From positions 12,640 through 76,639 of the forward strand of contig JAQUNW010000003.1 of NCBI GenBank assembly GCA_028717385.1: a stretch of 64,000 nt of DNA. The letters run 5' to 3'. Each line of letters starts with the position of its first letter. Positions within the stretch are counted from its first letter, which is position 1. Positions 2,891 through 50,758 of this stretch are shown one piece after another. This DNA is from Dehalococcoidales bacterium. Lineage in GTDB: Bacteria; Chloroflexota; Dehalococcoidia; Dehalococcoidales; CSSed11-197. The translations under genes and the position numbers were made by a program. Below the pieces are notes generated by a model, which searched no databases, was not told the origin of the DNA, and worked only from the letters and a program-made list of their open reading frames with translations.

Positions 2891-3442
2891 CTATTCCTCT
2901 TGGGTTTCTCCCAGGTTGAAAATAGAGACTTCATCTGTATCATCTGTTTCAGAAAGTTTGACTCTGACATCTTCATTCCGAGAGCTAGGGATGTTTTTCC
3001 CTACGTAATCTGCGCGTATCGGCAACTCCCGATGCCCGCGGTCTATCATAACTGCCAGCTTTATCGAGCTTGGCCTGCCCATATCAATCAGCGCGTCCAT
3101 GGCTGCCCGTGCGCTGCGGCCGGTGTAGAGCACGTCATCAACCAGGATGACAATTTTTTCATCAATACTTACCGGTATCGAAGTGCTCTCAACCACAGGT
3201 TGGAGGTTTCTGTGGGCAAGGTCATCGCGATACAGGCTGAAGTCAAGCACTCCAACGGGGATAGTGGTTCCTTCGTATTTTTTTATATTTTCTGCCAGCC
3301 TATGGGCAATGGGTACGCCCCGAGTGCGCATTCCAACCATAACAATATTACTTAAATCCCGGTTGTGTTCTATTATTTCATGGGCCATGCGCCCCAAGGT
3401 TCGCCGGATGTCTTCTGCCGTCAGTACTGTTTTATTTGTCAT
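2891..3442 (-). CDS. pyrR: bifunctional pyr operon attenuation regulator / uracil phosphoribosyltransferase
   Basis: 183-aa ORF with the PRTase motif [13 protein letters not shown]. It is the first gene of the pyrR-pyrB-pyrC-carA array and a PyrR-type leader lies upstream. Confidence 0.9.
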
Positions 3443-3540
3443 AAAAAAACCTCTCGCCGGCTGGCAAGAGGTTAAACACCGCTATGTACAGGTATCTGCT
3501 TAACTTCCTTACCAGCCTCACTGGACTGGTTTAAAGGGCA
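3443..3540 (-). promoter_or_regulatory. PyrR-binding leader with intrinsic terminator/attenuator
   Basis: The minus strand reads ...AAACCAGUCCAGUGAGGCUGG... (3512-3535), resembling the Bacillus-type PyrR binding loop (UCCAGAGAGG core). It is followed by CCUCUUGCCAGCCGGCGAGAGG (3471-3450) plus U7 (3449-3443), which abuts the AUG. Confidence 0.65.
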
Positions 3541-3686
3541 CCTTATTACAGGTGAATATTTTTTTATTTCGGTGAAGTATAGCACTTGTTATTGCTCCGA
3601 TACAAGTTTTTTTCCCGTTATATGAAGAATTGATTGCATTTTTATACTGTATGACCTGAAGGCTTGTAGAATGTTATAATTATGCC

Positions 3687-23800: not shown

Positions 23801-23982
23801 AGGACTGTTTTTCCTGGTTTTGTACTTTCACAAGTAAATATTCTCTGATTTGTGTTGCCTAATCTTAAAAGTATGGCATGCAAACAATGCCCCGAATAAA
23901 TCGGGGCTGAGGGTTCAGGCGGAAACACTTGAGCCTCCCATATTTGGAAAAGAGAAAATGATTGGTTAATGCTGTTCAAAAA

Positions 23983-26235: not shown

Positions 26236-27302
26236 TATAGACCGTCAGGGTTAAGGATGGCAATGCCGAGAGAACCAGGCTTGAACCTCATCCCGAGCAG
26301 GCAACGGTGGTTGAGATGGTATTTAATGGTGTATTAAGCGGCAAGGTGCTTATCGAAATAACCAGAGGTCTTAATGAAAGGCTGGTACCGGGACCATCAA
26401 ACAAGAAATGGGTTAAAACCAGCCTGCATGGCATTCTTACCAACGAGGTCTATACCGGTACTGCAGTATGGGGTAAGTCCAGCAAGCAGGGGTTACCACC
26501 GGTAAGGGTTGAGGATGCTTATCCGGCTATTGTCAGCTGGGAGGTGTTTGACCGGGTAAGAACGATGCTGGGGGAGCGGGCACCGGCTAAGGTTAATCCC
26601 AGGCGGATTGCCAGCCGTTTCCTGTTAAGCGGCCTTGTCCGCTGTAGCTACTGCGGCAAAGGTTTATGCAGCCGGGATGCCAAGGGTGGGAAGTTTTCCT
26701 ACTATGCCTGTACCACCAAGGATAAGCAGGGCCCATCTGCCTGCCCGAGTGTGTACTATAACAGCCGTAAGCTGGAAGGGCTTATTGTTGATAGGATCAG
26801 AGGCCTGATACTGACTGAAGAAAACCTGCCACAGCTCATATCGCTGGTCAAGGAGCAGGTGAATGCTGACACAATCGAGTACCAGGAATAACTCGGTCTG
26901 ATCAGCCAGGAGCAGGACAGGGTATCTGGCAGGCTTGACCGGCTGTATGATGCGCTTGAAACCGGTAGTGTCAGCCTAGCCGACCTTGCTCCCCGGATAA
27001 AGGAGTTAAGAAACCGGCAGGAAGAACTGGCTAACCGGAAACTTGAGATTGAATCATCAATGTCTGAGCATTGGATAAGTGGAATAGATCCCAACAGGAT
27101 CAAATACTATATCGACAACCTCAAAGCCCTGCTTGACCACGGTGAGCTATTTGAGAGAAAGGCATTTATCAGAAGTTTTGTACAGGAAATCATTGTTTCC
27201 AAACACGATGTGAAGCTGATCTATGCGATGCCTATGATCCCGAGCGTATCAGAATCGTTTGAGGAAGAAGTTCTACATTCTGTACGGTATGGTGGGCGGT
27301 AG
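26236..27302 (+). pseudogene. large serine recombinase lacking the catalytic resolvase domain, with an in-frame TAA at 26889
   Basis: The recombinase domain (LEPHPEQATVVEMVF...W..TSLHGILTNEVYTG) and zinc ribbon (CSYCGKGL...YYACT) are present, and a coiled-coil tail continues in the same frame after the TAA (LGLISQEQDRVSGRLDRLYDALETG...). There is no N-terminal Ser-catalytic domain. Confidence 0.75.
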
Positions 27303-27366
27303 AGGACTCGAACCACTGACCTCTGCGATGTCAACGCAGCGCTCTAACCAGCTGAGCTAACCGCCC
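27290..27366 (-). tRNA. tRNA-Val (anticodon GAC), CCA encoded
   Basis: GGGCGGTTAGCTCAGCTGGTTAGAGCGCTGCGTTGACATCGCAGAGGTCAGTGGTTCGAGTCCTCTACCGCCCACCA. It has a 7-bp acceptor stem, D and anticodon stems, and the loop TTGACAT. There is one U-U mismatch in the T stem. Confidence 0.88.
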
Positions 27367-37932: not shown

Positions 37933-38005
37933 GGGGCTGTAGCTCAGTTGGGAGAGCGCCTCCTTTGCAAGGAGGAAGTCAGGGGTTCGAGTCCCCTCAG
38001 CTCCA
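37933..38005 (+). tRNA. tRNA-Ala (anticodon TGC)
   Basis: GGGGCTGTAGCTCAGTTGGGAGAGCGCCTCCTTTGCAAGGAGGAAGTCAGGGGTTCGAGTCCCCTCAGCTCCA. The G3-U70 identity pair is present and CCA is not encoded. Confidence 0.93.
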
Positions 38006-42484: not shown

Positions 42485-43144
42485 TTACACAAAATTGAAA
42501 CGGTAAGTCCAGGTTGCTTTAAAATTACCACTCTTGTCAGTTATAGTTGGATTATCAGGTGCGTGCCATCTGTCATTGTAAAAGTTGTATATTCCCAAAG
42601 TTGAAATACCGCTGCGCGAGTATGAATATTTAACCGTCATGACTAGCTGATTGTCTTCCATGGTAATCGTACCGGAGCCGGTCATAGAGTATAAATAATC
42701 AAACTCGCTTTTTGCATAGTGTTTTTCCATGCCAGGATCATCCGCGAAAGGCGCCCGTTCAACACCATATGCGTCTACAGTGCAGGAAATATTTACAGTA
42801 CCCGATTGAGCAGTATTATCCCAAGTCCCTTCCATGGTGAAGTTAGAAGCATTAATAGTCCAGTTTATTTCGTTGGTTTTTGTTGTTGTAGATGCAGATG
42901 GCACCTCTGCTGAAAATTTGCCGTCTTTTGAAATTCTTATTGTGCCGGTATTAGCCAGGGCAGCCCTGATACCTTCGCCCGGGGTTGCGGTTGATGTACC
43001 GCTGGAATACACAAAACTATTAAGTTCAAGCTCTTCACCAATATCAATTGACACGGTCGGAGGCATGACAATGAATTCAACCTCTTTAACCACTTCATCA
43101 TCTTCAGGATTTACGATTTCAACCTTGTTGGGAGATCCTGCCAT
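42485..43144 (-). CDS. hypothetical beta-rich protein; probably the C-terminal part of the upstream lipoprotein
   Basis: 219-aa track ORF. The 198 nt upstream of it (43145-43342) are open in the same frame and read straight back to the TAG of the preceding ORF. Confidence 0.5.
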   Translation of the reverse strand: MAGSPNKVEIVNPEDDEVVKEVEFIVMPPTVSIDIGEELELNSFVYSSGTSTATPGEGIRAALANTGTIRISKDGKFSAEVPSASTTTKTNEINWTINASNFTMEGTWDNTAQSGTVNISCTVDAYGVERAPFADDPGMEKHYAKSEFDYLYSMTGSGTITMEDNQLVMTVKYSYSRSGISTLGIYNFYNDRWHAPDNPTITDKSGNFKATWTYRFNFV

Positions 43145-43342
43145 GATATGCCCGAGTACCCTGAAAGGCAGTGAAGCTTTACCCTCATCGCTTATCTCCT
43201 TCTGCCACCATTCCTTATCGATAACTTCATCAGCCAGGGGAGCGATGCGGGCTATGTAACCGGCATACAGGGCTTTTTCCGGCTTGGGGTCAGCTTCATC
43301 GTAAACAGAATCGTAAATCTGAACAGTTACTATCCTGTTGAG

Positions 43343-44827
43343 CTATTGAGCGATGGCATCCAGTTCTATTCCAACCTGGTTTTCATGTTCCTGGGCAAGC
43401 ACTCGCCCAAGCCGTATCAATACCGCATCCAGGGAATCATTTAACAGGTCATTTTTTTGGCGGCCGGATATCTTGTCCATAATACCCTGGTTCAAGCCGC
43501 CACCGCCAGTGAAGCCGTTTTTTTGTGCCTGGCTCTGGTAGGCGGCAACTATTGTTTCATCCTCCCAGAATTGCCAGCAGTAGCGATCGATTTCTGCCAT
43601 GATTTTCTGGTTTAGTTCCTGAGATGACTTGGCCTGTTTTGCCATAGGCTCTAATATTAAATACCAGTCCTTGGGAGTACGCTTCACGCCCGATTCGTGG
43701 AGATAATAAAGGCGGTACGCTTCGGTATAAATATTTTCTCTACCACTCCAGGCTTCGGTAGCAAACTCACTCAAAGCATAATCAATGCAATAAACGCCTA
43801 CCGAGCCCAGTTGAAGTATGGCTGATCCAAACTTGGAAACGCCGTAGTAGGTGAGGTTTTTGATCAGGTTGGTATGCAGCGCCTTGCTATCCCCATTCTG
43901 GTAATCGACTGCTGCTTGTGCAATAGCAGAAAGTAGTCCAACATTGCCCATGGCATTGCCTATGCCATCAAGAAACTCTGAAGCATATACAGTGTTGGTC
44001 AGGAATGTGATCCCGGCACCGGACATGTTCAGCCAGTCACCCACCACTTTGTTGCCCAGCTCAAGGGCAGATGGGCCAGGGTTCATACCATTATCAATTG
44101 CTTCACTTATTATTCCGGCATAATCGGCAGAACTGCTAGCATTGCGTATAGCTACCTTGGGAAGCGTAAAATCAACGTATGCAGCACGCGTGTATTCTCT
44201 GTCAACCACAAATGCTCCGTATACGGAAAGATGATCGGTGGTGATGGTGATGTTGCCGGCAGACGGGTTAATGTCATAGGATACCGGCTCCCATACTTTA
44301 AGAGCCTGGTTGTAGTAGCAGGCACCGACATATTCAGCCGGGTCTGCTCCGGCAGGCAGAAGGGTTTTGTCATAGGGTATGGTGATATCCATGAGGCCTA
44401 CCAGTTCTTCATCAGTATCGATGCGGAAATCCCAGGCATTTACCGACAGTTCATCGTTGATCAGCATGTTTTCCATCGGGGCAATGGTAACCTGGGCTTC
44501 CTCATTCAGGCATACCGGGGATACCTCGATGGAAACACCTTTACCGGAGACTTTCAGGTTCTCTTCATTCAATTTGCCCGATACAATGTTACTTGTAGTG
44601 GTGGGTATCGGTGTAGTGGTATAAGGCTTGGTGGTAGTTGTAGTTGTTGCCGGAAGAGTGGTTTTAGGGGCAGTTGTGGTTGGTTGCGTTGTTGCAGGGG
44701 CGGGTGAAGTTGTTGTGGGATCTTTTCCGCCTCCGCCACAGGCTGGCAAGAACGTGGCAACAAATACTAGCAATACAAGCACTGATGTAAGTTTTTTGGC
44801 TCTGGGGGATATTAGTCGTCTGGTCAT
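43343..44827 (-). CDS. hypothetical secreted lipoprotein with a long Pro/Thr linker
   Basis: 494 aa with a signal/lipobox (FLPAC) and about 50 aa of T/P-rich linker. I recognised no family. It ends at the TAG at 43345-43343. Confidence 0.6.
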   Translation of the reverse strand: MTRRLISPRAKKLTSVLVLLVFVATFLPACGGGGKDPTTTSPAPATTQPTTTAPKTTLPATTTTTTKPYTTTPIPTTTSNIVSGKLNEENLKVSGKGVSIEVSPVCLNEEAQVTIAPMENMLINDELSVNAWDFRIDTDEELVGLMDITIPYDKTLLPAGADPAEYVGACYYNQALKVWEPVSYDINPSAGNITITTDHLSVYGAFVVDREYTRAAYVDFTLPKVAIRNASSSADYAGIISEAIDNGMNPGPSALELGNKVVGDWLNMSGAGITFLTNTVYASEFLDGIGNAMGNVGLLSAIAQAAVDYQNGDSKALHTNLIKNLTYYGVSKFGSAILQLGSVGVYCIDYALSEFATEAWSGRENIYTEAYRLYYLHESGVKRTPKDWYLILEPMAKQAKSSQELNQKIMAEIDRYCWQFWEDETIVAAYQSQAQKNGFTGGGGLNQGIMDKISGRQKNDLLNDSLDAVLIRLGRVLAQEHENQVGIELDAIAQ

Positions 44828-46032: not shown

Positions 46033-46509
46033 TTACAGCTTCTTGTAGTATGTTATCCGGTGATCACCAGGAGCGTAAAAATCTGGAATGCAAGATACTT
46101 GACAGTAGCCATGAGAAGAATAAAATTTGCGGGTCTTTTCATATTCTGGTATCGATGAGGTTTCTATAAGCGCCAGTTTTCCTCCCAGTAGGCGGATGTT
46201 AGTCTCCGCTTCATTGATTAATGATGAACCAATGCCAAAGCCTTGTCGTGCGGGAATTACGGCTTCCCAGTAAATGTCCCAGGTACTCTCGGTGAGGGGA
46301 GTAGGGCCATAGCAAATATATCCAACCAAAACATGGTTTTCTTCAGCTACCAGAATGTGGTATCCAGAATTGGTGCCTTTGCCAAGATATTCGTCAACCA
46401 GTTCTTTGGCGATGGTGATTTCTATTGGTTTGAATTGAGGAATTGTTTCAAGTAAATAGACAATTTCAGACTTGTCCTGTGCACTCATTTGGCGGATTAC
46501 AATACTCAT
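46033..46509 (-). CDS. GNAT family N-acetyltransferase
   Basis: 158 aa with the acetyl-CoA motif RQGFGIGSSL. Its start lies 1 nt after the stop of the upstream ATP-grasp gene. Confidence 0.8.
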   Translation of the reverse strand: MSIVIRQMSAQDKSEIVYLLETIPQFKPIEITIAKELVDEYLGKGTNSGYHILVAEENHVLVGYICYGPTPLTESTWDIYWEAVIPARQGFGIGSSLINEAETNIRLLGGKLALIETSSIPEYEKTRKFYSSHGYCQVSCIPDFYAPGDHRITYYKKL

Positions 46510-46510
46510 A

Positions 46511-47500
46511 TCAACTATTATCCAGTGCCTGTTCGATAATTATCTTAATCAATTCTGTATATGTCAGCCCGGCTGCTGCAGCTTGTTTAGCGCAGCCTGC
46601 ATCTGGGGAGATATCTGGGTTCGGGTTTACCTCTAACACATAGAAACTCCCATAATCATCCTGGCGGATATCAACTCTGGAGTATCCATGGCAGCCACAG
46701 GCTTTATAGGCGTTAATAGATAGTTCTCTGATTTTAGATTCATCTCTTCGTGATGTTTTAGCCGGGCAAACAGATTGGGTTTGTTTGTAGTATAAACTAT
46801 CCGGATTCCATTTAGATTCAAACGTAAGAATCCTGGGCATTTCGGATGGGAGGTCATACACAATTTCAGATACTGGCAGCACCTTATTGCCAAGCACAGT
46901 TGCATTAAACTCTTTACCATCAATGAATTCTTCAACCAGAGCCGGTTTTCCTGAAGTTAGCAGAATTCGTTCCAAAACGCTATTAAGGCTTTCCGGTGAA
47001 TATATAACGTTGTCAATATAAATGCCGTGACTGGCATCTTCCTGTGAAGGTTTTGCGATAACCGGGTAGTTAATTGTTAACTCTCCCGGGGAAGACGAAT
47101 CAAGAATTTGGAAATCAGGTGTAGGGATGCCTTTCTTTTTAAAAGTGTTTTTAGAAAGCACCTTATCCAATCCAATCTCAAGAGCCTCTGGTGGATTACC
47201 GGTATATGGGATATCCAGGTTATGGCAACCTTTGGCAATTTCAACCTCGGTTTCCGGTTGGCCGTCGAATCCTTCAAAGAGATTGAATATCACCGAAGCC
47301 TTGATACGGCTAACGGTATCAAGCGCTTCATCAAGTGGGGGTGAAAGCGGCACTAAAAAAGACTGGCAGCTAAGCTCCAGCAGGGCATTCTCAACTGCAG
47401 CAACAGCGTTTAGTACTCCTTTAATGGCCGCATCTTCATCAGATGCAGTATAACGCGAGGGCGCTGGTTTATTGTAAATAATTGCTATATCTGGATGCAT
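46511..47500 (-). CDS. ATP-grasp ligase, D-alanine--D-alanine ligase-like (copy 2)
   Basis: 329 aa with YPVIAKPSQEDASHGI and SRVDIRQDDYGSFYVLEVNPNPD. It overlaps the upstream gene by 16 nt. Confidence 0.75.
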   Translation of the reverse strand: MHPDIAIIYNKPAPSRYTASDEDAAIKGVLNAVAAVENALLELSCQSFLVPLSPPLDEALDTVSRIKASVIFNLFEGFDGQPETEVEIAKGCHNLDIPYTGNPPEALEIGLDKVLSKNTFKKKGIPTPDFQILDSSSPGELTINYPVIAKPSQEDASHGIYIDNVIYSPESLNSVLERILLTSGKPALVEEFIDGKEFNATVLGNKVLPVSEIVYDLPSEMPRILTFESKWNPDSLYYKQTQSVCPAKTSRRDESKIRELSINAYKACGCHGYSRVDIRQDDYGSFYVLEVNPNPDISPDAGCAKQAAAAGLTYTELIKIIIEQALDNS

Positions 47501-48492
47501 TGCGGATATCTTTCGAGCGCAGCTGAAAGAATCATCTGGATAAGGCTTTGGTGAGATATGCCCAGAAAGCTGGCCATTATTACCAAATCACTGTGATTGC
47601 CCAAGCCAGGAAGCGGATTAATCTCGATAAAATAAGGTTGCCCCTGTTTATCGATTCTAAAATCAAGCCTGGCCATATCCAGGCAGCCGAGTAATGAGTA
47701 AATCTTGAGGCTGGTCTTTTTTATTTCTTCTAATACCGTCTTTGGTAAATTGGCAGGGCATTCATAATCGACCTGGTTTACATAATCCCGCTTTACTTCA
47801 ATTGAATACATGAACATTTCGTGCCGATGTTTGGGCTTGATTTCCATTATCCCAAGAACATCGGGTTTATGAGAGCCAATAATTCCCACTGTTACTTCTC
47901 TGCCAGATATATACTGTTCTATCATCACTGGCTGATTATATCCAACCAGTGATGTTGTGCAGAGTGCTTTTGCTTCCTGGACATTTTGCGCAAGAGAGCA
48001 ATTATGGATTCCGATGCTTGAACCTTCATGGGCAGGTTTTACAACCAAAGGGAAGCCAATATTATCCCAAGATACTCTATCTGCCGATTGCTTATCACTC
48101 ACAACCAGCCAGTGAGGTGTAACTATGCCGGAAGCTTTGAGAATATGCTTGGTTAGTGGTTTATCAAGACAGATCGAAAGACATTGGGGGGATGAACCAG
48201 TATAGGGAATGTTATACATTTCAAGCACTGACGGAACCTGCGCCTCGCGTGATGGATAGTTCCCGCGACCTTCGCTGATGTTAAAAACAAGTTCGGCATC
48301 AGTACCTGCGCACATATTACTAAGAAATTCCAAACCCCCACCCAGATGTATCACCGTATGGCCAAGTGCCTCAAGAGAAGAAGAAATCAACTGAACGGTT
48401 TCAACCGAGTCGTATTCTTCTGCAATATCTTCCGGCAAGCCGGGTTTCAGATCAAAGCTGGTTTTGAGATCGTAAGTGAGACCGATGTGCAT
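47485..48492 (-). CDS. ATP-grasp ligase, D-alanine--D-alanine ligase-like (copy 1)
   Basis: 335 aa from the ATG at 48492 (MHIGLTYDLK), with FPLVVKPAHEGSSIGI and ARLDFRIDKQGQPYFIEINPLPG. The start lies 1 nt after the kamA TAA. The track ORF extends spuriously to 48687. Confidence 0.78.
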   Translation of the reverse strand: MHIGLTYDLKTSFDLKPGLPEDIAEEYDSVETVQLISSSLEALGHTVIHLGGGLEFLSNMCAGTDAELVFNISEGRGNYPSREAQVPSVLEMYNIPYTGSSPQCLSICLDKPLTKHILKASGIVTPHWLVVSDKQSADRVSWDNIGFPLVVKPAHEGSSIGIHNCSLAQNVQEAKALCTTSLVGYNQPVMIEQYISGREVTVGIIGSHKPDVLGIMEIKPKHRHEMFMYSIEVKRDYVNQVDYECPANLPKTVLEEIKKTSLKIYSLLGCLDMARLDFRIDKQGQPYFIEINPLPGLGNHSDLVIMASFLGISHQSLIQMILSAALERYPQCIQI

Positions 48493-48493
48493 A

Positions 48494-49810
48494 TTACGAT
48501 TCTGCCCCCGAGTATGCATGGGCAGGTGGTATCGAAACAACTCTTTCAGAATTGTTGGGTTGTTCGTACGATTCTGCCGATGGATTCCTATATGAATATA
48601 GATTGCCTCGATAATTTTTAAATAACATCGATCCTGGATTAATCGCTGCAATGTAGTCGGGCAGCAGAGGCACCTTGCCACCACCATCTGGTAAATCGAC
48701 TACGAACGAGGGGATTCCCATCCCGGAAGTATGGCCGCGCATTCCAGCGATAATCTCAATGCCTTTTTCTACGGGTGTACGTAAATGCTCAGCTCCTCGT
48801 ACCTCATCGCATTGGAAGAGGTAATAAGGCCGAACCTTTATTTTCAGCAATCCCTGGCAAAGAGCCAGCTGATCTTGAACGCTATCGTTAATACCTTTCA
48901 AAAGAACCGATTGGTTGTTAACCGGAATACCGTGCCGAAGCAGGCGTTCGCATGCTGCAGCAGACTGTGGCGTGATTTCATTCACAGTATTGAAGTGAGT
49001 ATTGAACCACACCGGGCTATAGCGAGATAGCATTTCGCATAATTCGTCATCGACGCGTTGAGGCAGCACTACCGGGAATCGGGACCCGATGCGAATTATT
49101 TCTACATGACTGATACTACGCAGTGAAGATAAAATACTCTCCAGGCGTGCTGTGCTGAGGCTGAGTGGATCTCCGCCCGAAACAATCACATCCCTGATTT
49201 CCGTATGAGAGCGTATATAATCGAACATTGCCTCAAATTCTTCCTTGGAGTGGACCATGCCTTTATGATTCCAGTCACGTTTACGAGTGCAATGCCGGCA
49301 AAGCATTGGGCAAATATTGGTTGAAACCATTAGAGCCCTATCGCTATAGCGGTGAACAAGGCCGGGTACTACTGAATCTCCCTTTTCATCCAGCGGATCA
49401 TCGTAACCTTGCATATGTTCATCGATTTCAAGTATAGAGGGTACCGATTGCCTTCTCACCGGATCGTTAGCATCGTTTGCATTTATGAGAGTGAGGTAAT
49501 AAGGCGTAATTGAAATTGGGTAGCGAAGGGTAACCTTTTCAAGGCTTTGGATTTCTTCAAAAGACAGCGGTAAGTAGCGAGCAAGCTCTTGAATTGTGGT
49601 AATACGATTCTGGAATTGCCACTTCCAGTTGTTCCAAAGTTCATCAGAAACAAACGGGAAGTATTTGCTTCGATTGGAGAAGGGTTGGGGAGGTTCGCTG
49701 GACGTACCGGGAGGTTCTGTTTCTTCCGTGCTTTCCGATGAGGCAGCATCAGGTATAACAATATTAGATTGCCTGGATTCAACCGAGGGATTTACAACCC
49801 CATGTTTCAC
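48494..49810 (-). CDS. kamA: lysine 2,3-aminomutase family radical SAM enzyme (KamA-like)
   Basis: 438 aa with the radical SAM motif CPMLCRHC, then VRPYYLFQCDEVRGAEHLRTP and FVVDLPDGGGK. The GTG start is preceded by AAGGAG. It carries an N-terminal extension of about 50 aa rich in S/E/P. Confidence 0.85.
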   Translation of the reverse strand: MKHGVVNPSVESRQSNIVIPDAASSESTEETEPPGTSSEPPQPFSNRSKYFPFVSDELWNNWKWQFQNRITTIQELARYLPLSFEEIQSLEKVTLRYPISITPYYLTLINANDANDPVRRQSVPSILEIDEHMQGYDDPLDEKGDSVVPGLVHRYSDRALMVSTNICPMLCRHCTRKRDWNHKGMVHSKEEFEAMFDYIRSHTEIRDVIVSGGDPLSLSTARLESILSSLRSISHVEIIRIGSRFPVVLPQRVDDELCEMLSRYSPVWFNTHFNTVNEITPQSAAACERLLRHGIPVNNQSVLLKGINDSVQDQLALCQGLLKIKVRPYYLFQCDEVRGAEHLRTPVEKGIEIIAGMRGHTSGMGIPSFVVDLPDGGGKVPLLPDYIAAINPGSMLFKNYRGNLYSYRNPSAESYEQPNNSERVVSIPPAHAYSGAES

Positions 49811-49942
49811 TTGTTTACTTTCTCCTTTTGTTATCTAGTTTAATTAAACAGGAATTATATTTCTAGAATACTAATTATACAATAAGCGCTAAAGAATTCA
49901 AATAGTTTTTAGAAATACGAAAAGTATATTTAAAACAAAAAG

Positions 49943-50758
49943 TTAAGTGCTAACCACAGATACAATCAACCTGATTGCAACTGCAAGAAGACCTAAAGCG
50001 AGGAAGCGGATAATTACTTGCCCGGGCACTTTTTTGGAATATTTTGCACCGACTTGAGCCCCGGCTATAGCTCCCAATGAGAGAAGAAGTGCAATTGCAA
50101 AACCATCAGCAAAGCTTTCTCTGATAATATGGGTTATCAGGGCTGAAAACGTCGTGATGGAAATAACCATATGAGAAGTTGCAGTGGCTATATGCACTGG
50201 GTAGGAAAGCAGGTTGCACATAGCTGGGACGTGTATAATACCTCCTCCGATACCCAGCAGCCCTGCAACAAAGCCGGTAAAAAAAGCCAGAACAATACCC
50301 AGTTTGAGAGAATATGAAAAACTGTGTTTGGTACCTTCGGAGTCAGTTATTTCGCGTTTAGTGGTACCGTTAAGGCTGCAAGAGTTGGATTTTTGAACAC
50401 CGGGCTTTACTAACAGATAAATGGATAGAGCAATCAATACGACGCTAAATATGAGCTGAAACGAGTTTCGGCCAAGCAGACCGGTGACGTTGGCTCCTAT
50501 GATAGCACCCGGTATACCGGCCAGTGAAAAAATCAATGCAGACCGAAAATCAATTCTCTTCAGCCGGCTGTAAGCAAGAGTTCCAGAAAAGGAATTAAAG
50601 AAAGTAACTGTGAGGGTTATTGCAGTAATGGTTGAGGGGCTATAATCCGGGTATATTAATAACAGAACAGGGACAAGAATAAAGCCGCCGCCAGCGCCGA
50701 TAAGCGTTCCGAAACCACCCACCAGAAATCCGATAATTGGCAGAAGAAACCAGGGCAA
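49943..50758 (-). CDS. TauE/SafE (DUF81) family anion exporter
   Basis: 271 aa with 7-8 TM segments and the duplicated G-rich motifs (GAGGGFILVP, GIGGGIIHVP) typical of the family. Confidence 0.8.
   Translation of the reverse strand: MPWFLLPIIGFLVGGFGTLIGAGGGFILVPVLLLIYPDYSPSTITAITLTVTFFNSFSGTLAYSRLKRIDFRSALIFSLAGIPGAIIGANVTGLLGRNSFQLIFSVVLIALSIYLLVKPGVQKSNSCSLNGTTKREITDSEGTKHSFSYSLKLGIVLAFFTGFVAGLLGIGGGIIHVPAMCNLLSYPVHIATATSHMVISITTFSALITHIIRESFADGFAIALLLSLGAIAGAQVGAKYSKKVPGQVIIRFLALGLLAVAIRLIVSVVST

What the first reader, a model, noticed from the sequence alone, without database searches (positions are those of the whole stretch)
46033..49810. Tightly coupled KamA, ATP-grasp, ATP-grasp, GNAT operon: candidate pathway for an unknown beta-lysine-derived compound
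Four minus-strand genes are packed with almost no spacing. The kamA TAA lies 1 nt before the ATG at 48492. The two ATP-grasp genes overlap by 16 nt. The GNAT start lies 1 nt after the preceding stop.

The KamA homologue has the radical SAM CPMLCRHC motif. It keeps both acidic positions (QCD..., VVDLPDGGGK) that, as I recall, bind the lysine epsilon-amine in clostridial lysine 2,3-aminomutase and are replaced in glutamate 2,3-aminomutase. That points to beta-lysine as the product.

The known fates of beta-lysine use different partner enzymes: N-epsilon-acetyl-beta-lysine via AblAB, EF-P modification via EpmAB, and lysine fermentation. Here two Ddl-like ligases and a small GNAT are attached instead. 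The closest analogy is N-acetylglutaminylglutamine amide synthesis, where a GNAT and an ATP-grasp cooperate. The product could therefore be an N-acetylated beta-lysyl di- or tripeptide (osmolyte or cell-envelope precursor).

The KamA protein also carries an unusual N-terminal extension of about 50 aa rich in S/E/P.
Basis: partly seen in the sequence, partly recalled or inferred. Interest (0 to 1): 0.72.

Follow-up and report, generated by a model that had tools for sequence, protein, structure and literature searches.

The report
Conserved beta-lysine peptide-making operon
Four tightly coupled genes (a lysine 2,3-aminomutase, two D-Ala-D-Ala-ligase-like amide ligases and a small acetyltransferase) form a cassette conserved in hundreds of uncultured Dehalococcoidia, and most likely make a still unidentified N-acetylated beta-lysine-containing small molecule.

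Summary
KamA (48494-49810), ATP-grasp G1 (47485-48492), ATP-grasp G2 (46511-47500) and a GNAT (46033-46509) lie on the minus strand with a 1-nt gap, a 16-nt overlap and a 1-nt gap.

- **KamA.** It is 50% identical to the crystallised Clostridium lysine 2,3-aminomutase. It keeps the Fe-S motif, the PLP lysine, Arg134 and both epsilon-amine-binding aspartates.
- **Ligases.** Both have the Ddl fold and catalytic residues. Both miss every curated Ddl cutoff and differ from Ddl at substrate positions.
- **Conservation.** The cassette is in at least 593 species-level genomes, mostly Dehalococcoidia. The order is identical in 68 of the 80 loci examined. The rest are mostly cut by contig ends or have G2 fused to the GNAT.
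- **Independent links.** G2-GNAT fusions make up about a quarter of the GNAT subfamily's representatives. Two Desulfobacterota loci pair G1-G2-GNAT with a different KamA clade in a different order.
- **Not found.** No efp, precursor-peptide ORF or riboswitch is associated. I found no curated family and no paper covering the cassette.

Best reading: a pathway for an N-acetylated, amide-linked beta-lysine compound. Its product and role (osmolyte, exported metabolite or polycation) are unproven.

The KamA N-terminal extension is disordered. It carries conserved (D/E)EEPP(G/S) motifs with a strong CCU-CC codon bias, which is unexplained.

The parts
49874..49901 (-). Promoter-like site (TTGAAT-16-TATAAT) in the 132-nt gap between the TauE gene and kamA. 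This is a weak consensus match only.
   Evidence: 10 of 12 matches; the number of sites in the region is not above the shuffled expectation
49821..49827 (-). Ribosome-binding site (AAGGAGA) upstream of the GTG start of kamA.
   Evidence: an AGGAG followed by GTG-AAA start context recurs in the homologues aligned in A4
48494..49810 (-). KamA-family radical SAM/PLP lysine 2,3-aminomutase (438 aa). Predicted reaction: L-lysine to beta-lysine.
   Evidence: 2A5H E=2e-125 and 50% identity. CxxxCxxC, R134, D293, D330 and K337 equivalents are conserved. TIGR00238 passes; the AblA equivalog scores 450 bits against a cutoff of 525.
49676..49810 (-). Disordered N-terminal extension of KamA. It holds two copies of the conserved (D/E)EEPP(G/S/Q) motif: GAACCTCCCGGT at 49717-49706 and GAACCTCCCCAA at 49696-49685.
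   Evidence: the motif is at about -34 and -20 aa from WNDWKW in 66 homologues. The first Pro codon is CCT in 91 of 117 motif copies, against 20-23% elsewhere. pLDDT is about 30 for residues 1-44.
47485..48492 (-). G1: Ddl-fold ATP-grasp carboxylate-amine ligase (335 aa), translationally coupled to kamA.
   Evidence: Dala_Dala_lig_C E=2e-43. It is below all Ddl cutoffs. Catalytic K, R, D, E and N residues are kept. Y216 is R235, H63 is E74 and L282 is D302. AF2 pLDDT 88.6; TM 0.75-0.83 to Ddl structures.
46511..47500 (-). G2: second, divergent Ddl-fold ATP-grasp ligase (329 aa, 27% identical to G1). It overlaps G1 by 16 nt.
   Evidence: catalytic residues are kept. S150 is A156, Y216 is W231, G276 is D296, L282 is G302 and H63 is E76. 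It is often fused to the GNAT in other genomes.
46033..46509 (-). Small GNAT N-acetyltransferase (158 aa) of the 2R7H subfamily, with the acetyl-CoA motif RQGFGIG.
   Evidence: 2R7H E=2.8e-36. No AblB, RimI or other curated family reaches its cutoff.

Best explanation
The four genes are one translationally coupled operon that builds a small, N-acetylated, amide-linked compound from beta-lysine.

**Step 1 (strongly inferred from homology).** KamA uses a [4Fe-4S] cluster, SAM and PLP to convert L-lysine to beta-lysine (3,6-diaminohexanoate).

**Steps 2 and 3 (inferred from fold and retained catalytic residues; substrates unknown).** G1 and G2 are ADP-forming carboxylate-amine ligases that work through acyl-phosphate intermediates.
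- They form two amide bonds, or act as a heteromer forming one.
- The bonds join beta-lysine to one or two further amino acids or amines, or to itself.
- G1 is the ligase most tightly tied to KamA.

**Step 4 (inferred).** The GNAT transfers acetyl from acetyl-CoA onto a free amine of the substrate or product of G2. G2 is physically fused to this GNAT in many genomes.

**Product and role.**
- The product is therefore an N-acetyl beta-lysine-containing di- or tripeptide-like molecule.
- Its most likely role is a cytoplasmic compatible solute or organic ion. That would make it an elaborated relative of N-epsilon-acetyl-beta-lysine, built with NAGGN-like logic.
- Accessory genes in other genomes would regulate, recycle and move it. 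They are a divergent winged-helix regulator, an HDAC-type deacetylase and MarC, MFS or other permeases.
For: **KamA**
- E=2e-125 and 50% identity to the crystallised lysine 2,3-aminomutase 2A5H. All catalytic and lysine-binding residues are conserved and invariant in 30 family members.
- Its best curated model is AblA-type LAM.

**G1 and G2**
- Ddl fold: hhalign probability 99.7-99.8%. The G1 model has pLDDT 88.6 and TM up to 0.83.
- The equivalents of K97, K144, K215, R255, D257, E270 and N272 are kept, but substrate positions are altered.

**GNAT**
- It has an intact acetyl-CoA motif and a 2R7H-type fold.

**Cassette conservation**
- At least 593 species-level genomes contain it. 68 of the 80 loci examined have the complete identical order. 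The remainder are mostly contig-truncated or have G2 fused to the GNAT.
- Overlapping stop and start codons are conserved.

**Functional links**
- G2-GNAT fusions occur in L022 and L079.
- 39 of the best 150 GNAT-subfamily representatives have the length of such a fusion, 487-546 aa. The four of these that were scanned, plus three shorter, truncated-looking ones, all carry Dala_Dala_lig_C plus GNAT.
- A KamA+G1-only variant exists in L080.
- G1-G2-GNAT is followed by a different KamA clade in Syntrophales and Desulfatiglandales loci. That clade also keeps both aspartates.

**Accessory genes**
- wHTH regulator in 52 of 80 loci, GNAT-HDAC in 26, MarC in 22, MFS in 12.
- One HDAC-GNAT fusion exists in the same GNAT subfamily.

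**Absences that fit a small-molecule pathway**
- No efp gene and no conserved small ORF.
- No riboswitch.
Against: - No product has been observed, and no member of G1, G2 or this GNAT subfamily has been characterised.
- The substrates of both ligases, and which amine is acetylated, cannot be read from sequence.
- KamA misses the AblA equivalog cutoff (450 against 525 bits). It also lacks the C-terminal zinc-cysteine motif of clostridial LAM, so a related basic substrate is not excluded.
- The cassette occurs in groundwater, peat, digester and marine MAGs alike. Nothing ties it specifically to salt.
- Multi-pass membrane proteins are about twice as frequent next to the cassette as further away: 20% against 9%. 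That fits an exported product at least as well as an osmolyte.
- None of the accessory genes is present in this window.
Confidence: 0.58

Rival explanations
1. Oligomer or polymer synthesis. The two ligases iteratively join beta-lysine units (epsilon-amine to carboxylate, as in the beta-lysine chain of streptothricins). This would give an N-acetyl-capped oligo- or poly-beta-lysine. The product would be a polycation that is exported or acts as a polyamine substitute. The HDAC-type enzyme would uncap it.
For: - Both ligases replace Ddl His63 with an invariant Glu. G2 adds invariant Asp155 and Asp296 in the substrate region, which would suit diamino-acid substrates.
- Permeases of four different families flank the cassette in different lineages: TauE here, and MarC, MFS and another permease elsewhere.
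- An HDAC-type amidohydrolase, whose characterised relatives deacetylate acetyl-lysine and acetyl-polyamines, is adjacent in 26 of 80 loci.
Against: - Ddl-type enzymes are not known to act iteratively.
- Two distinct ligases, kept at only 27% identity to each other, argue for two different defined bonds.
- No primer or length-control component is evident.
- The charge arguments come from alignment only.
Confidence: 0.12
2. The aminomutase acts on another basic amino acid, or on a lysine derivative, so the compound is built on a different beta-amino acid. Candidates are arginine, ornithine or a lysyl conjugate made by a ligase.
For: - KamA is below the lysine (AblA) equivalog cutoff. It scores only modestly better for lysine (450) than for the glutamate (415) or arginine (396) models.
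- It lacks the LAM zinc-cysteine site.
Against: - 50% identity to an authentic LAM, with both epsilon-amine aspartates, Arg134 and the PLP lysine invariant.
- All alternative equivalogs miss their cutoffs by a much larger margin.
Confidence: 0.1
3. Post-translational modification. Beta-lysine is ligated by the ATP-grasp enzymes onto a protein, such as EF-P or a ribosomal protein, and then acetylated. This would be a non-EpmA route to beta-lysylation.
For: - KamA homologues supply beta-lysine for EF-P modification in gamma-proteobacteria.
- Some ATP-grasp enzymes (RimK, TTL) modify proteins.
- The KamA leader carries conserved PPG/PPS motifs, a class of sequence I recall as EF-P-dependent.
Against: - No efp gene lies in the window or in 81 related loci.
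- KamA is LAM-like with a C-terminal domain, not the truncated EpmB type: EpmB model 245 bits against a cutoff of 369.
- The ligases have the Ddl fold, whose characterised members use small substrates, not the RimK/TTL type.
- The deacetylase and permeases fit a metabolite better.
Confidence: 0.07
4. Cell-wall chemistry. One or both ligases are true D-Ala-D-Ala (or D-Ala-D-X) ligases for murein, and the linkage to KamA is incidental or serves a beta-lysine cross-bridge.
For: - Ddl structures are the best sequence and structure matches.
- Public annotation calls these proteins D-alanine--D-alanine ligase, and calls the 2R7H GNAT a putative D-alanine N-acetyltransferase.
Against: - They are below every curated Ddl, Van and archaeal-Ddl cutoff.
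- The Tyr216, His63 and (in G2) Ser150, Gly276, Ser281 and Leu282 positions are changed.
- No mur genes appear in any of the 80 neighbourhoods.
- They are always linked to KamA and the GNAT.
- From general knowledge, cultivated Dehalococcoidia lack peptidoglycan.
Confidence: 0.03
5. A RiPP-like system in the manner of microviridins, which use two ATP-grasp ligases plus a GNAT acting on a ribosomal precursor peptide.
For: The enzyme inventory (two ATP-grasp ligases plus a GNAT) matches the microviridin set from my own knowledge.
Against: - No conserved small ORF lies outside known genes in 81 loci.
- The ligases are Ddl-type, not the RimK-like graspetide type.
- A PLP aminomutase needs a free alpha-amino acid.
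Confidence: 0.02

Closest known systems
AblA/AblB pathway for N-epsilon-acetyl-beta-lysine (methanogens, some bacteria)
   Same: A LAM-type KamA and a GNAT sit in one operon. Beta-lysine is made and then N-acetylated. AblA-type LAM is the best curated hit for KamA.
   Different: - Two ATP-grasp ligases sit between the aminomutase and the acetyltransferase.
- The GNAT has 158 aa and gives no AblB-model hit.
- KamA is below the AblA equivalog cutoff and has a motif-bearing N-terminal extension.
NAGGN synthesis (Ngg bifunctional GNAT/ATP-grasp plus AsnO)
   Same: An acetyltransferase and an ATP-grasp ligase are functionally, and often physically, fused to make an N-acetylated peptide solute. G2-GNAT fusions are common here.
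   Different: - No aminomutase and no beta-amino acid in NAGGN synthesis.
- No amidotransferase here.
- The ligase here is Ddl-type and N-terminal to the GNAT.
- The Ngg architecture is recalled from memory, not tested.
D-alanine--D-alanine ligase / VanA family
   Same: Same three-domain fold, with ATP-, Mg- and phosphate-binding residues kept. Identity is 28-30% to E. coli DdlB by profile alignment, and TM reaches 0.83 to the best PDB match.
   Different: - Below all curated cutoffs.
- Substrate positions are changed.
- The N-terminal Ddl motif is not recognisable in G1.
- The genomic context is KamA plus GNAT, not mur/ftsQ.
Pyrrolysine biosynthesis PylB/PylC/PylD
   Same: Same chemical logic. 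A radical SAM enzyme rearranges lysine to a non-proteinogenic diamino acid, and a Ddl-like ATP-grasp (PylC) then ligates it to an amine. This comparison is from my own knowledge.
   Different: - PylB is not a KamA/PLP aminomutase.
- PylC did not appear among PDB sequence hits at E<=1e-5.
- The Pyl pathway has no GNAT.
EpmA/EpmB beta-lysylation of EF-P
   Same: A KamA-family enzyme supplies beta-lysine that is then ligated in an ATP-dependent way.
   Different: - The EpmB cutoff is not met (245 against 369 bits).
- A C-terminal LAM domain is present.
- The ligase is an ATP-grasp, not a LysRS paralogue.
- No efp linkage.
PDB 2R7H, 'putative D-alanine N-acetyltransferase of GNAT family'
   Same: Clear full-length homologue of the cassette GNAT (E=2.8e-36 over the whole length).
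   Different: It is a structural-genomics entry without a demonstrated function. I recall the source as a Desulfovibrio strain, but neither the organism nor its gene neighbourhood could be checked here.

Membership tests
Lysine 2,3-aminomutase (KamA/AblA type) | Radical SAM CxxxCxxC cluster motif | tested here: met
   CPMLCRHC aligns to C125/C129/C132 of 2A5H. It is invariant in 30 homologues.
Lysine 2,3-aminomutase (KamA/AblA type) | PLP-binding lysine (K337) and alpha-carboxylate arginine (R134) | tested here: met
   K379 and R176 of the window protein align to these residues and are invariant.
Lysine 2,3-aminomutase (KamA/AblA type) | Asp293 and Asp330, which bind the lysine epsilon-ammonium | tested here: met
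   D335 (FQCD) and D372 (VVD) align to them and are invariant. Their role is known from the 2A5H structure literature, which I recall rather than retrieved.
Lysine 2,3-aminomutase (KamA/AblA type) | Curated equivalog score (TIGR03820) | tested here: not met
   450.5 bits against a cutoff of 525.4. Only the general KamA subfamily TIGR00238 passes (340 against 199).
Lysine 2,3-aminomutase (KamA/AblA type) | C-terminal zinc site (C268 plus the CxCxxC of clostridial LAM) | tested here: not met
   The C268 position is Ser, and the C-terminal tail has no Cys. Residues 412-438 are predicted disordered.
Lysine 2,3-aminomutase (KamA/AblA type) | Conversion of L-lysine to beta-lysine | not testable with these tools
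   Needs an anaerobic enzyme assay.
Glutamate or arginine 2,3-aminomutase | Curated equivalog scores (TIGR04368, TIGR04468) | tested here: not met
   415 against 650 and 396 against 600 bits. Both aspartates that I recall as replaced in the glutamate enzyme are retained.
EpmB (EF-P beta-lysylation) | Equivalog score; truncated protein without the LAM C-terminal domain; linkage to efp and epmA | tested here: not met
   245 against 369 bits. There is a LAM_C hit. No efp gene lies in the window or in 81 loci. The definition is taken from PMC2821294.
D-alanine--D-alanine ligase | Curated family scores (NF002378, TIGR01205) | tested here: not met
   G1 scores 196 against 243 and 175 against 246. 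G2 scores 150 against 243 and 127 against 246.
D-alanine--D-alanine ligase | ATP-grasp catalytic residues (DdlB K97, K144, K215, R255, D257, E270, N272) | tested here: met
   All align to conserved residues in both G1 and G2.
D-alanine--D-alanine ligase | Substrate-site residues E15, S150, Y216 and H63, G276, S281, L282 | tested here: not met
   - G1: Y216 is R235, H63 is E74 and L282 is D302. The N-terminal E15 region does not align.
- G2: E15 is S15, S150 is A156, Y216 is W231, H63 is E76, G276 is D296 and L282 is G302.
AblB beta-lysine N-acetyltransferase | Match to the curated AblB model; protein of about 270 aa | tested here: not met
   No AblB model is among the NCBIfam hits at E<=0.01. 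The protein has 158 aa.
NAGGN synthetase (Ngg) | GNAT plus ATP-grasp in one protein, partnered with an AsnO amidotransferase | tested here: inconclusive
   - ATP-grasp-GNAT fusions exist in relatives, but the two are separate genes here.
- No amidotransferase is seen in the neighbourhoods.
- No Ngg model is among the listed hits.
Graspetide / microviridin RiPP clusters | Precursor peptide gene next to the ATP-grasp ligases | tested here: not met
   No conserved small ORF lies outside the known genes in 81 loci.

The most novel reading that the evidence does not exclude
The cassette is a ribosome- and NRPS-independent machine. Two Ddl-derived ligases condense beta-lysine (with itself or with a partner) into an acetyl-capped cationic oligomer. 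In the wall-less, streamlined Dehalococcoidia this would be a major organic cation, polyamine substitute or exported effector. Its synthesis would be tuned through the conserved EEPPG/CCUCC elements in the KamA leader. That would be a new class of metabolite and a new regulatory device.
Probability: 0.1. Interest if true: 0.85.

Novelty: new variant of a known kind. Interest (0 to 1): 0.62.

Why it matters
- **Scale.** Dehalococcoidia are among the most widespread uncultured anaerobes in sediments, aquifers and digesters, and they have small genomes. A four-gene cassette kept in hundreds of their species-level genomes is likely to make a physiologically important molecule.
- **Chemistry.** No beta-lysine conjugate made by ATP-grasp ligases is known to me. 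No curated family and no retrievable paper covers the ligases or the GNAT. The only structure of the GNAT subfamily (2R7H) has no assigned function.
- **What identifying the product would give.**
  - A new fate for beta-lysine.
  - Two new specificities for the Ddl fold.
  - A biomarker or osmoadaptation mechanism for this class.
  - Correction of the widespread 'D-alanine--D-alanine ligase' annotation of these genes.

Tried and rejected
  - They combined aminomutase, beta-lysine, ATP-grasp, Dehalococcoidia, 2R7H and related terms. None found a description of the cassette.
  - The comma in '2,3-aminomutase' cannot be searched, which limited phrase queries.
  - Ruzicka & Frey 2007 and the D. 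vulgaris salt-stress paper are not held.
  - The D. alaskensis G20 fitness paper has no relevant text and no supplements held.
- **Riboswitch or leader RNA.** No Rfam hit lies near the cassette, in the window or in 10 loci.
- **RNA structure for the CCUCC elements.**
  - The window's 5' region folds no better than shuffles (z = -0.29).
  - RNAalifold on 26 homologues predicts no conserved pairs.
  - An SD-sequestering structure is therefore not supported, although the codon bias is real.
- **Plasmid collection.**
  - Distant GNAT homologues (29-36% identity) are stand-alone and uninformative.
  - Rhizobial ATP-grasp homologues (about 32% identity) have no KamA context.
- **Accessory genes.** The wHTH regulator, GNAT-HDAC, MarC and MFS genes are absent from this 64-kb window.
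- **Stand-alone KamA clade.** Its contexts showed no conserved partner.
- **Rejected readings.** The EF-P, RiPP and murein-Ddl readings were considered and rejected for the reasons given under the rival explanations.

Full report
**1. Observation**

The minus strand between 46033 and 49810 holds four ORFs packed as described.
- KamA is 48494-49810 (438 aa). It has a GTG start 11 nt after a GGAG.
- Its TAA is followed by one base and then the ATG of ATP-grasp G1 (47485-48492, 335 aa).
- G2 (46511-47500, 329 aa) starts 16 nt inside G1.
- The GNAT (46033-46509, 158 aa) starts one base after the G2 stop.
- JGI gene calls on four metagenome contigs that carry the identical KamA give the same genes.
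- A promoter-like TTGAAT-16-TATAAT lies in the 132-nt gap upstream. No terminator-like site lies in an intergenic position within the operon. Both are weak consensus evidence.
- Named homologues of these proteins are all MAG proteins from Dehalococcoidia or Chloroflexota, apart from one Desulfatiglandales ATP-grasp. The window therefore comes from that class.

**2. The enzymes**

*KamA*
- It hits Radical_SAM and LAM_C.
- It matches the only solved lysine 2,3-aminomutase, 2A5H, at E=2e-125 with 50% identity.
- The CxxxCxxC motif, Arg134, Asp293, Asp330 and Lys337 of 2A5H all align to identical residues. These residues are invariant in 30 family members.
- Among curated models the best is AblA-type LAM at 450 bits, below its 525 cutoff.
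- The glutamate (415 of 650), arginine (396 of 600) and EpmB (245 of 369) models all fail. Only the general KamA subfamily passes.
- The clostridial zinc-cysteine site is absent.
- I therefore call it a lysine 2,3-aminomutase of a distinct clade. The activity is inferred, not shown.

*G1 and G2*
- Both hit Dala_Dala_lig_C (E=2e-43 and 3e-28). Only Ddl or Van structures appear among their PDB hits, apart from one weak L-amino-acid-ligase match for G1.
- Both are below every curated Ddl cutoff.
- Profile alignment to E. coli DdlB gives probability 99.7-99.8% at 28-30% identity. I checked the DdlB sequence against the 1IOV alignment.
- The ATP, Mg and phosphate residues K97, K144, K215, R255, D257, E270 and N272 are retained in both. 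Both are therefore probably active ligases.
- Substrate positions differ from DdlB as follows.

| DdlB position | G1 | G2 |
|---|---|---|
| His63 | Glu74 (invariant) | Glu76 (invariant) |
| Tyr216 | Arg235 | Trp231 |
| Ser150 | kept | Ala156 |
| Gly276 | kept | Asp296 |
| Ser281 | kept | Ala301 |
| Leu282 | Asp302 | Gly302 |

- G1 and G2 are only 27% identical to each other.
- An AlphaFold model of G1 (pLDDT 88.6) superposes on Ddl and D-Ala-D-Lac ligases with TM 0.75-0.83.

*GNAT*
- It has the acetyl-CoA motif and matches Acetyltransf_7/1.
- It reaches no curated family cutoff and gives no AblB hit.
- It is a clear homologue of PDB 2R7H (E=2.8e-36). That entry is a structural-genomics 'putative D-alanine N-acetyltransferase' without a known function.

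**3. Conservation and variants**

593 of those stretches were confirmed relatives, and the best 80 were kept.
  - The 80 are almost all Dehalococcoidia. A few records are labelled Syntrophales or delta-proteobacteria.
  - They come from groundwater, peat, digesters, sulfidic springs and the Black Sea.
- 68 of the 80 have KamA-G1-G2-GNAT in the same order and strand. The others are mostly cut by contig ends or contain fusions.
- Stop/start overlaps are conserved. The 16-nt G1/G2 overlap is in 64 of 77 loci.
- Three KamA homologues at about 60% identity, looked up independently, all sit in the same cassette.

Informative variants:
- G2 and the GNAT are one polypeptide in L022 and L079.
- In an exhaustive search of 1.84 billion representatives, 39 of the best 150 members of this GNAT subfamily are 487-546 aa. 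The four of these that I scanned, and three shorter fragments, all carry Dala_Dala_lig_C plus GNAT. One further protein is HDAC plus GNAT.
- L080 has only KamA and G1.
- In Syntrophales (L066) and Desulfatiglandales (L094) the order is G1-G2-GNAT followed by a KamA of a different, 381-aa clade. That clade is about 40% identical to the window KamA and keeps both aspartates.
- So two different KamA lineages in two gene orders accompany the same ligase-GNAT module. This is strong evidence for a functional link.

Accessory genes seen in other loci but not in this window:

| Gene | Loci (of 80) |
|---|---|
| Divergent winged-helix regulator | 52 |
| 579-aa protein with an HDAC domain and a GNAT-like N-terminus | 26 |
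| MarC | 22 |
| Large MFS protein | 12 |

- Here a TauE permease lies upstream.
- Proteins with four or more TM segments are 20% of genes within 1.5 kb of the cassette, against 9% beyond 3 kb.

**4. What it most likely does**

- Lysine is isomerised to beta-lysine.
- Two acyl-phosphate-forming ligases then make amide bonds involving it.
- The GNAT, which works with G2, acetylates an amine.
- The product would be an N-acetylated beta-lysine-containing di- or tripeptide-like molecule.
- Known chemistry offers three parallels:
  - AblAB (beta-lysine plus acetylation);
  - NAGGN synthesis (GNAT plus ATP-grasp);
  - PylB/PylC (a radical-SAM lysine mutase plus a Ddl-like ligase).
- The role is open. 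A compatible solute is the most economical guess. However, the deacetylase and the variety of adjacent permeases fit a reversibly capped, transported cation equally well.

I found no support for the alternatives:
- no efp gene and no conserved small ORF in 81 loci;
- no riboswitch;
- no mur genes in any neighbourhood.

**5. The N-terminal extension**

- Residues 1-44 are predicted disordered, but they are not random.
- In 66 full-length homologues, one to three copies of (D/E)(D/E)EPP(G/S) sit at fixed offsets, about -34 and -20 residues from the WNDWKW motif.
- In 117 copies the first proline codon is CCT in 91. It is 23% in the rest of KamA and 20% in other Pro-Pro pairs of the cassette. CCG falls from 34-44% to 2%.
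- The result is a conserved GAA-CCU-CC. The window has two copies, and they are the only such motifs in real ORFs of the 64 kb.
- No conserved RNA pairing was found.
- Whether this is a docking motif, a polyproline pause site or an anti-SD-like RNA element is unexplained.

**6. Novelty**

No curated family, no retrievable paper and no characterised homologue covers G1, G2, the GNAT or the cassette. The enzyme families and the type of chemistry are familiar. I therefore rate it a new variant of a known kind, of good but not exceptional interest.

Noticed in passing
window 49685-49717 (minus strand); loci L008-L087 KamA 5' regions: The KamA leader holds conserved tandem (D/E)EEPP(G/S) motifs. 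The first proline codon is CCT in 78% of copies, against about 20% background. This gives a conserved GAACCUCC (anti-SD-like) or a polyproline pause site. No conserved RNA structure was detected.
   Followed up: partly
P0241-P0360; loci L088-L093, L066:9561-10712, L094:3404-4612: A second KamA clade of about 381 aa is 82-88% identical across Syntrophales, Phycisphaerae, Sedimentisphaerales, Aminicenantes, Eisenbacteria and Pseudomonadota MAGs. That is unusually high cross-phylum conservation. It is usually stand-alone with no conserved neighbours, but sits 3' of G1-G2-GNAT in two Desulfobacterota loci.
   Followed up: partly
L100 (Thioflavicoccus mobilis plasmid pTHIMO01, NC_019941.1 6691-12172): A different cluster pairs a KamA-family gene and a Ddl-like ATP-grasp with SbnA, an SbnB-like gene and a diaminobutyrate aminotransferase. 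This points to another ATP-grasp pathway that joins diamino acids.
   Followed up: no
L058:10137-11876 and 25 other loci; P0492: A 579-aa protein with an HDAC-type amidohydrolase domain and a GNAT-like N-terminal region follows the cassette in 26 of 80 loci. One representative fuses an HDAC domain to the cassette-type GNAT. No NCBIfam model matches it.
   Followed up: partly
window 42485-44827 (minus strand): A 780-aa predicted lipoprotein gene with a Thr/Pro-rich linker carries an in-frame stop (AQ*LNR) in the window. The near-identical contig L001 has Glu at that position (AQELNR). This is a strain-level nonsense variant or pseudogene.
   Followed up: yes
window 23831-23970 (+), 3441-3541 (-), 27293-27366 (-), 37933-38005 (+): Rfam hits: a Moco/tungsten riboswitch (72 bits), a PyrR binding site (just at threshold) and two tRNAs.
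   Followed up: no
window 49943-50758 (minus strand): A TauE/SafE-family permease lies directly upstream of kamA on the same strand. Other lineages have MarC, MFS or another permease at the cassette borders instead.
   Followed up: partly
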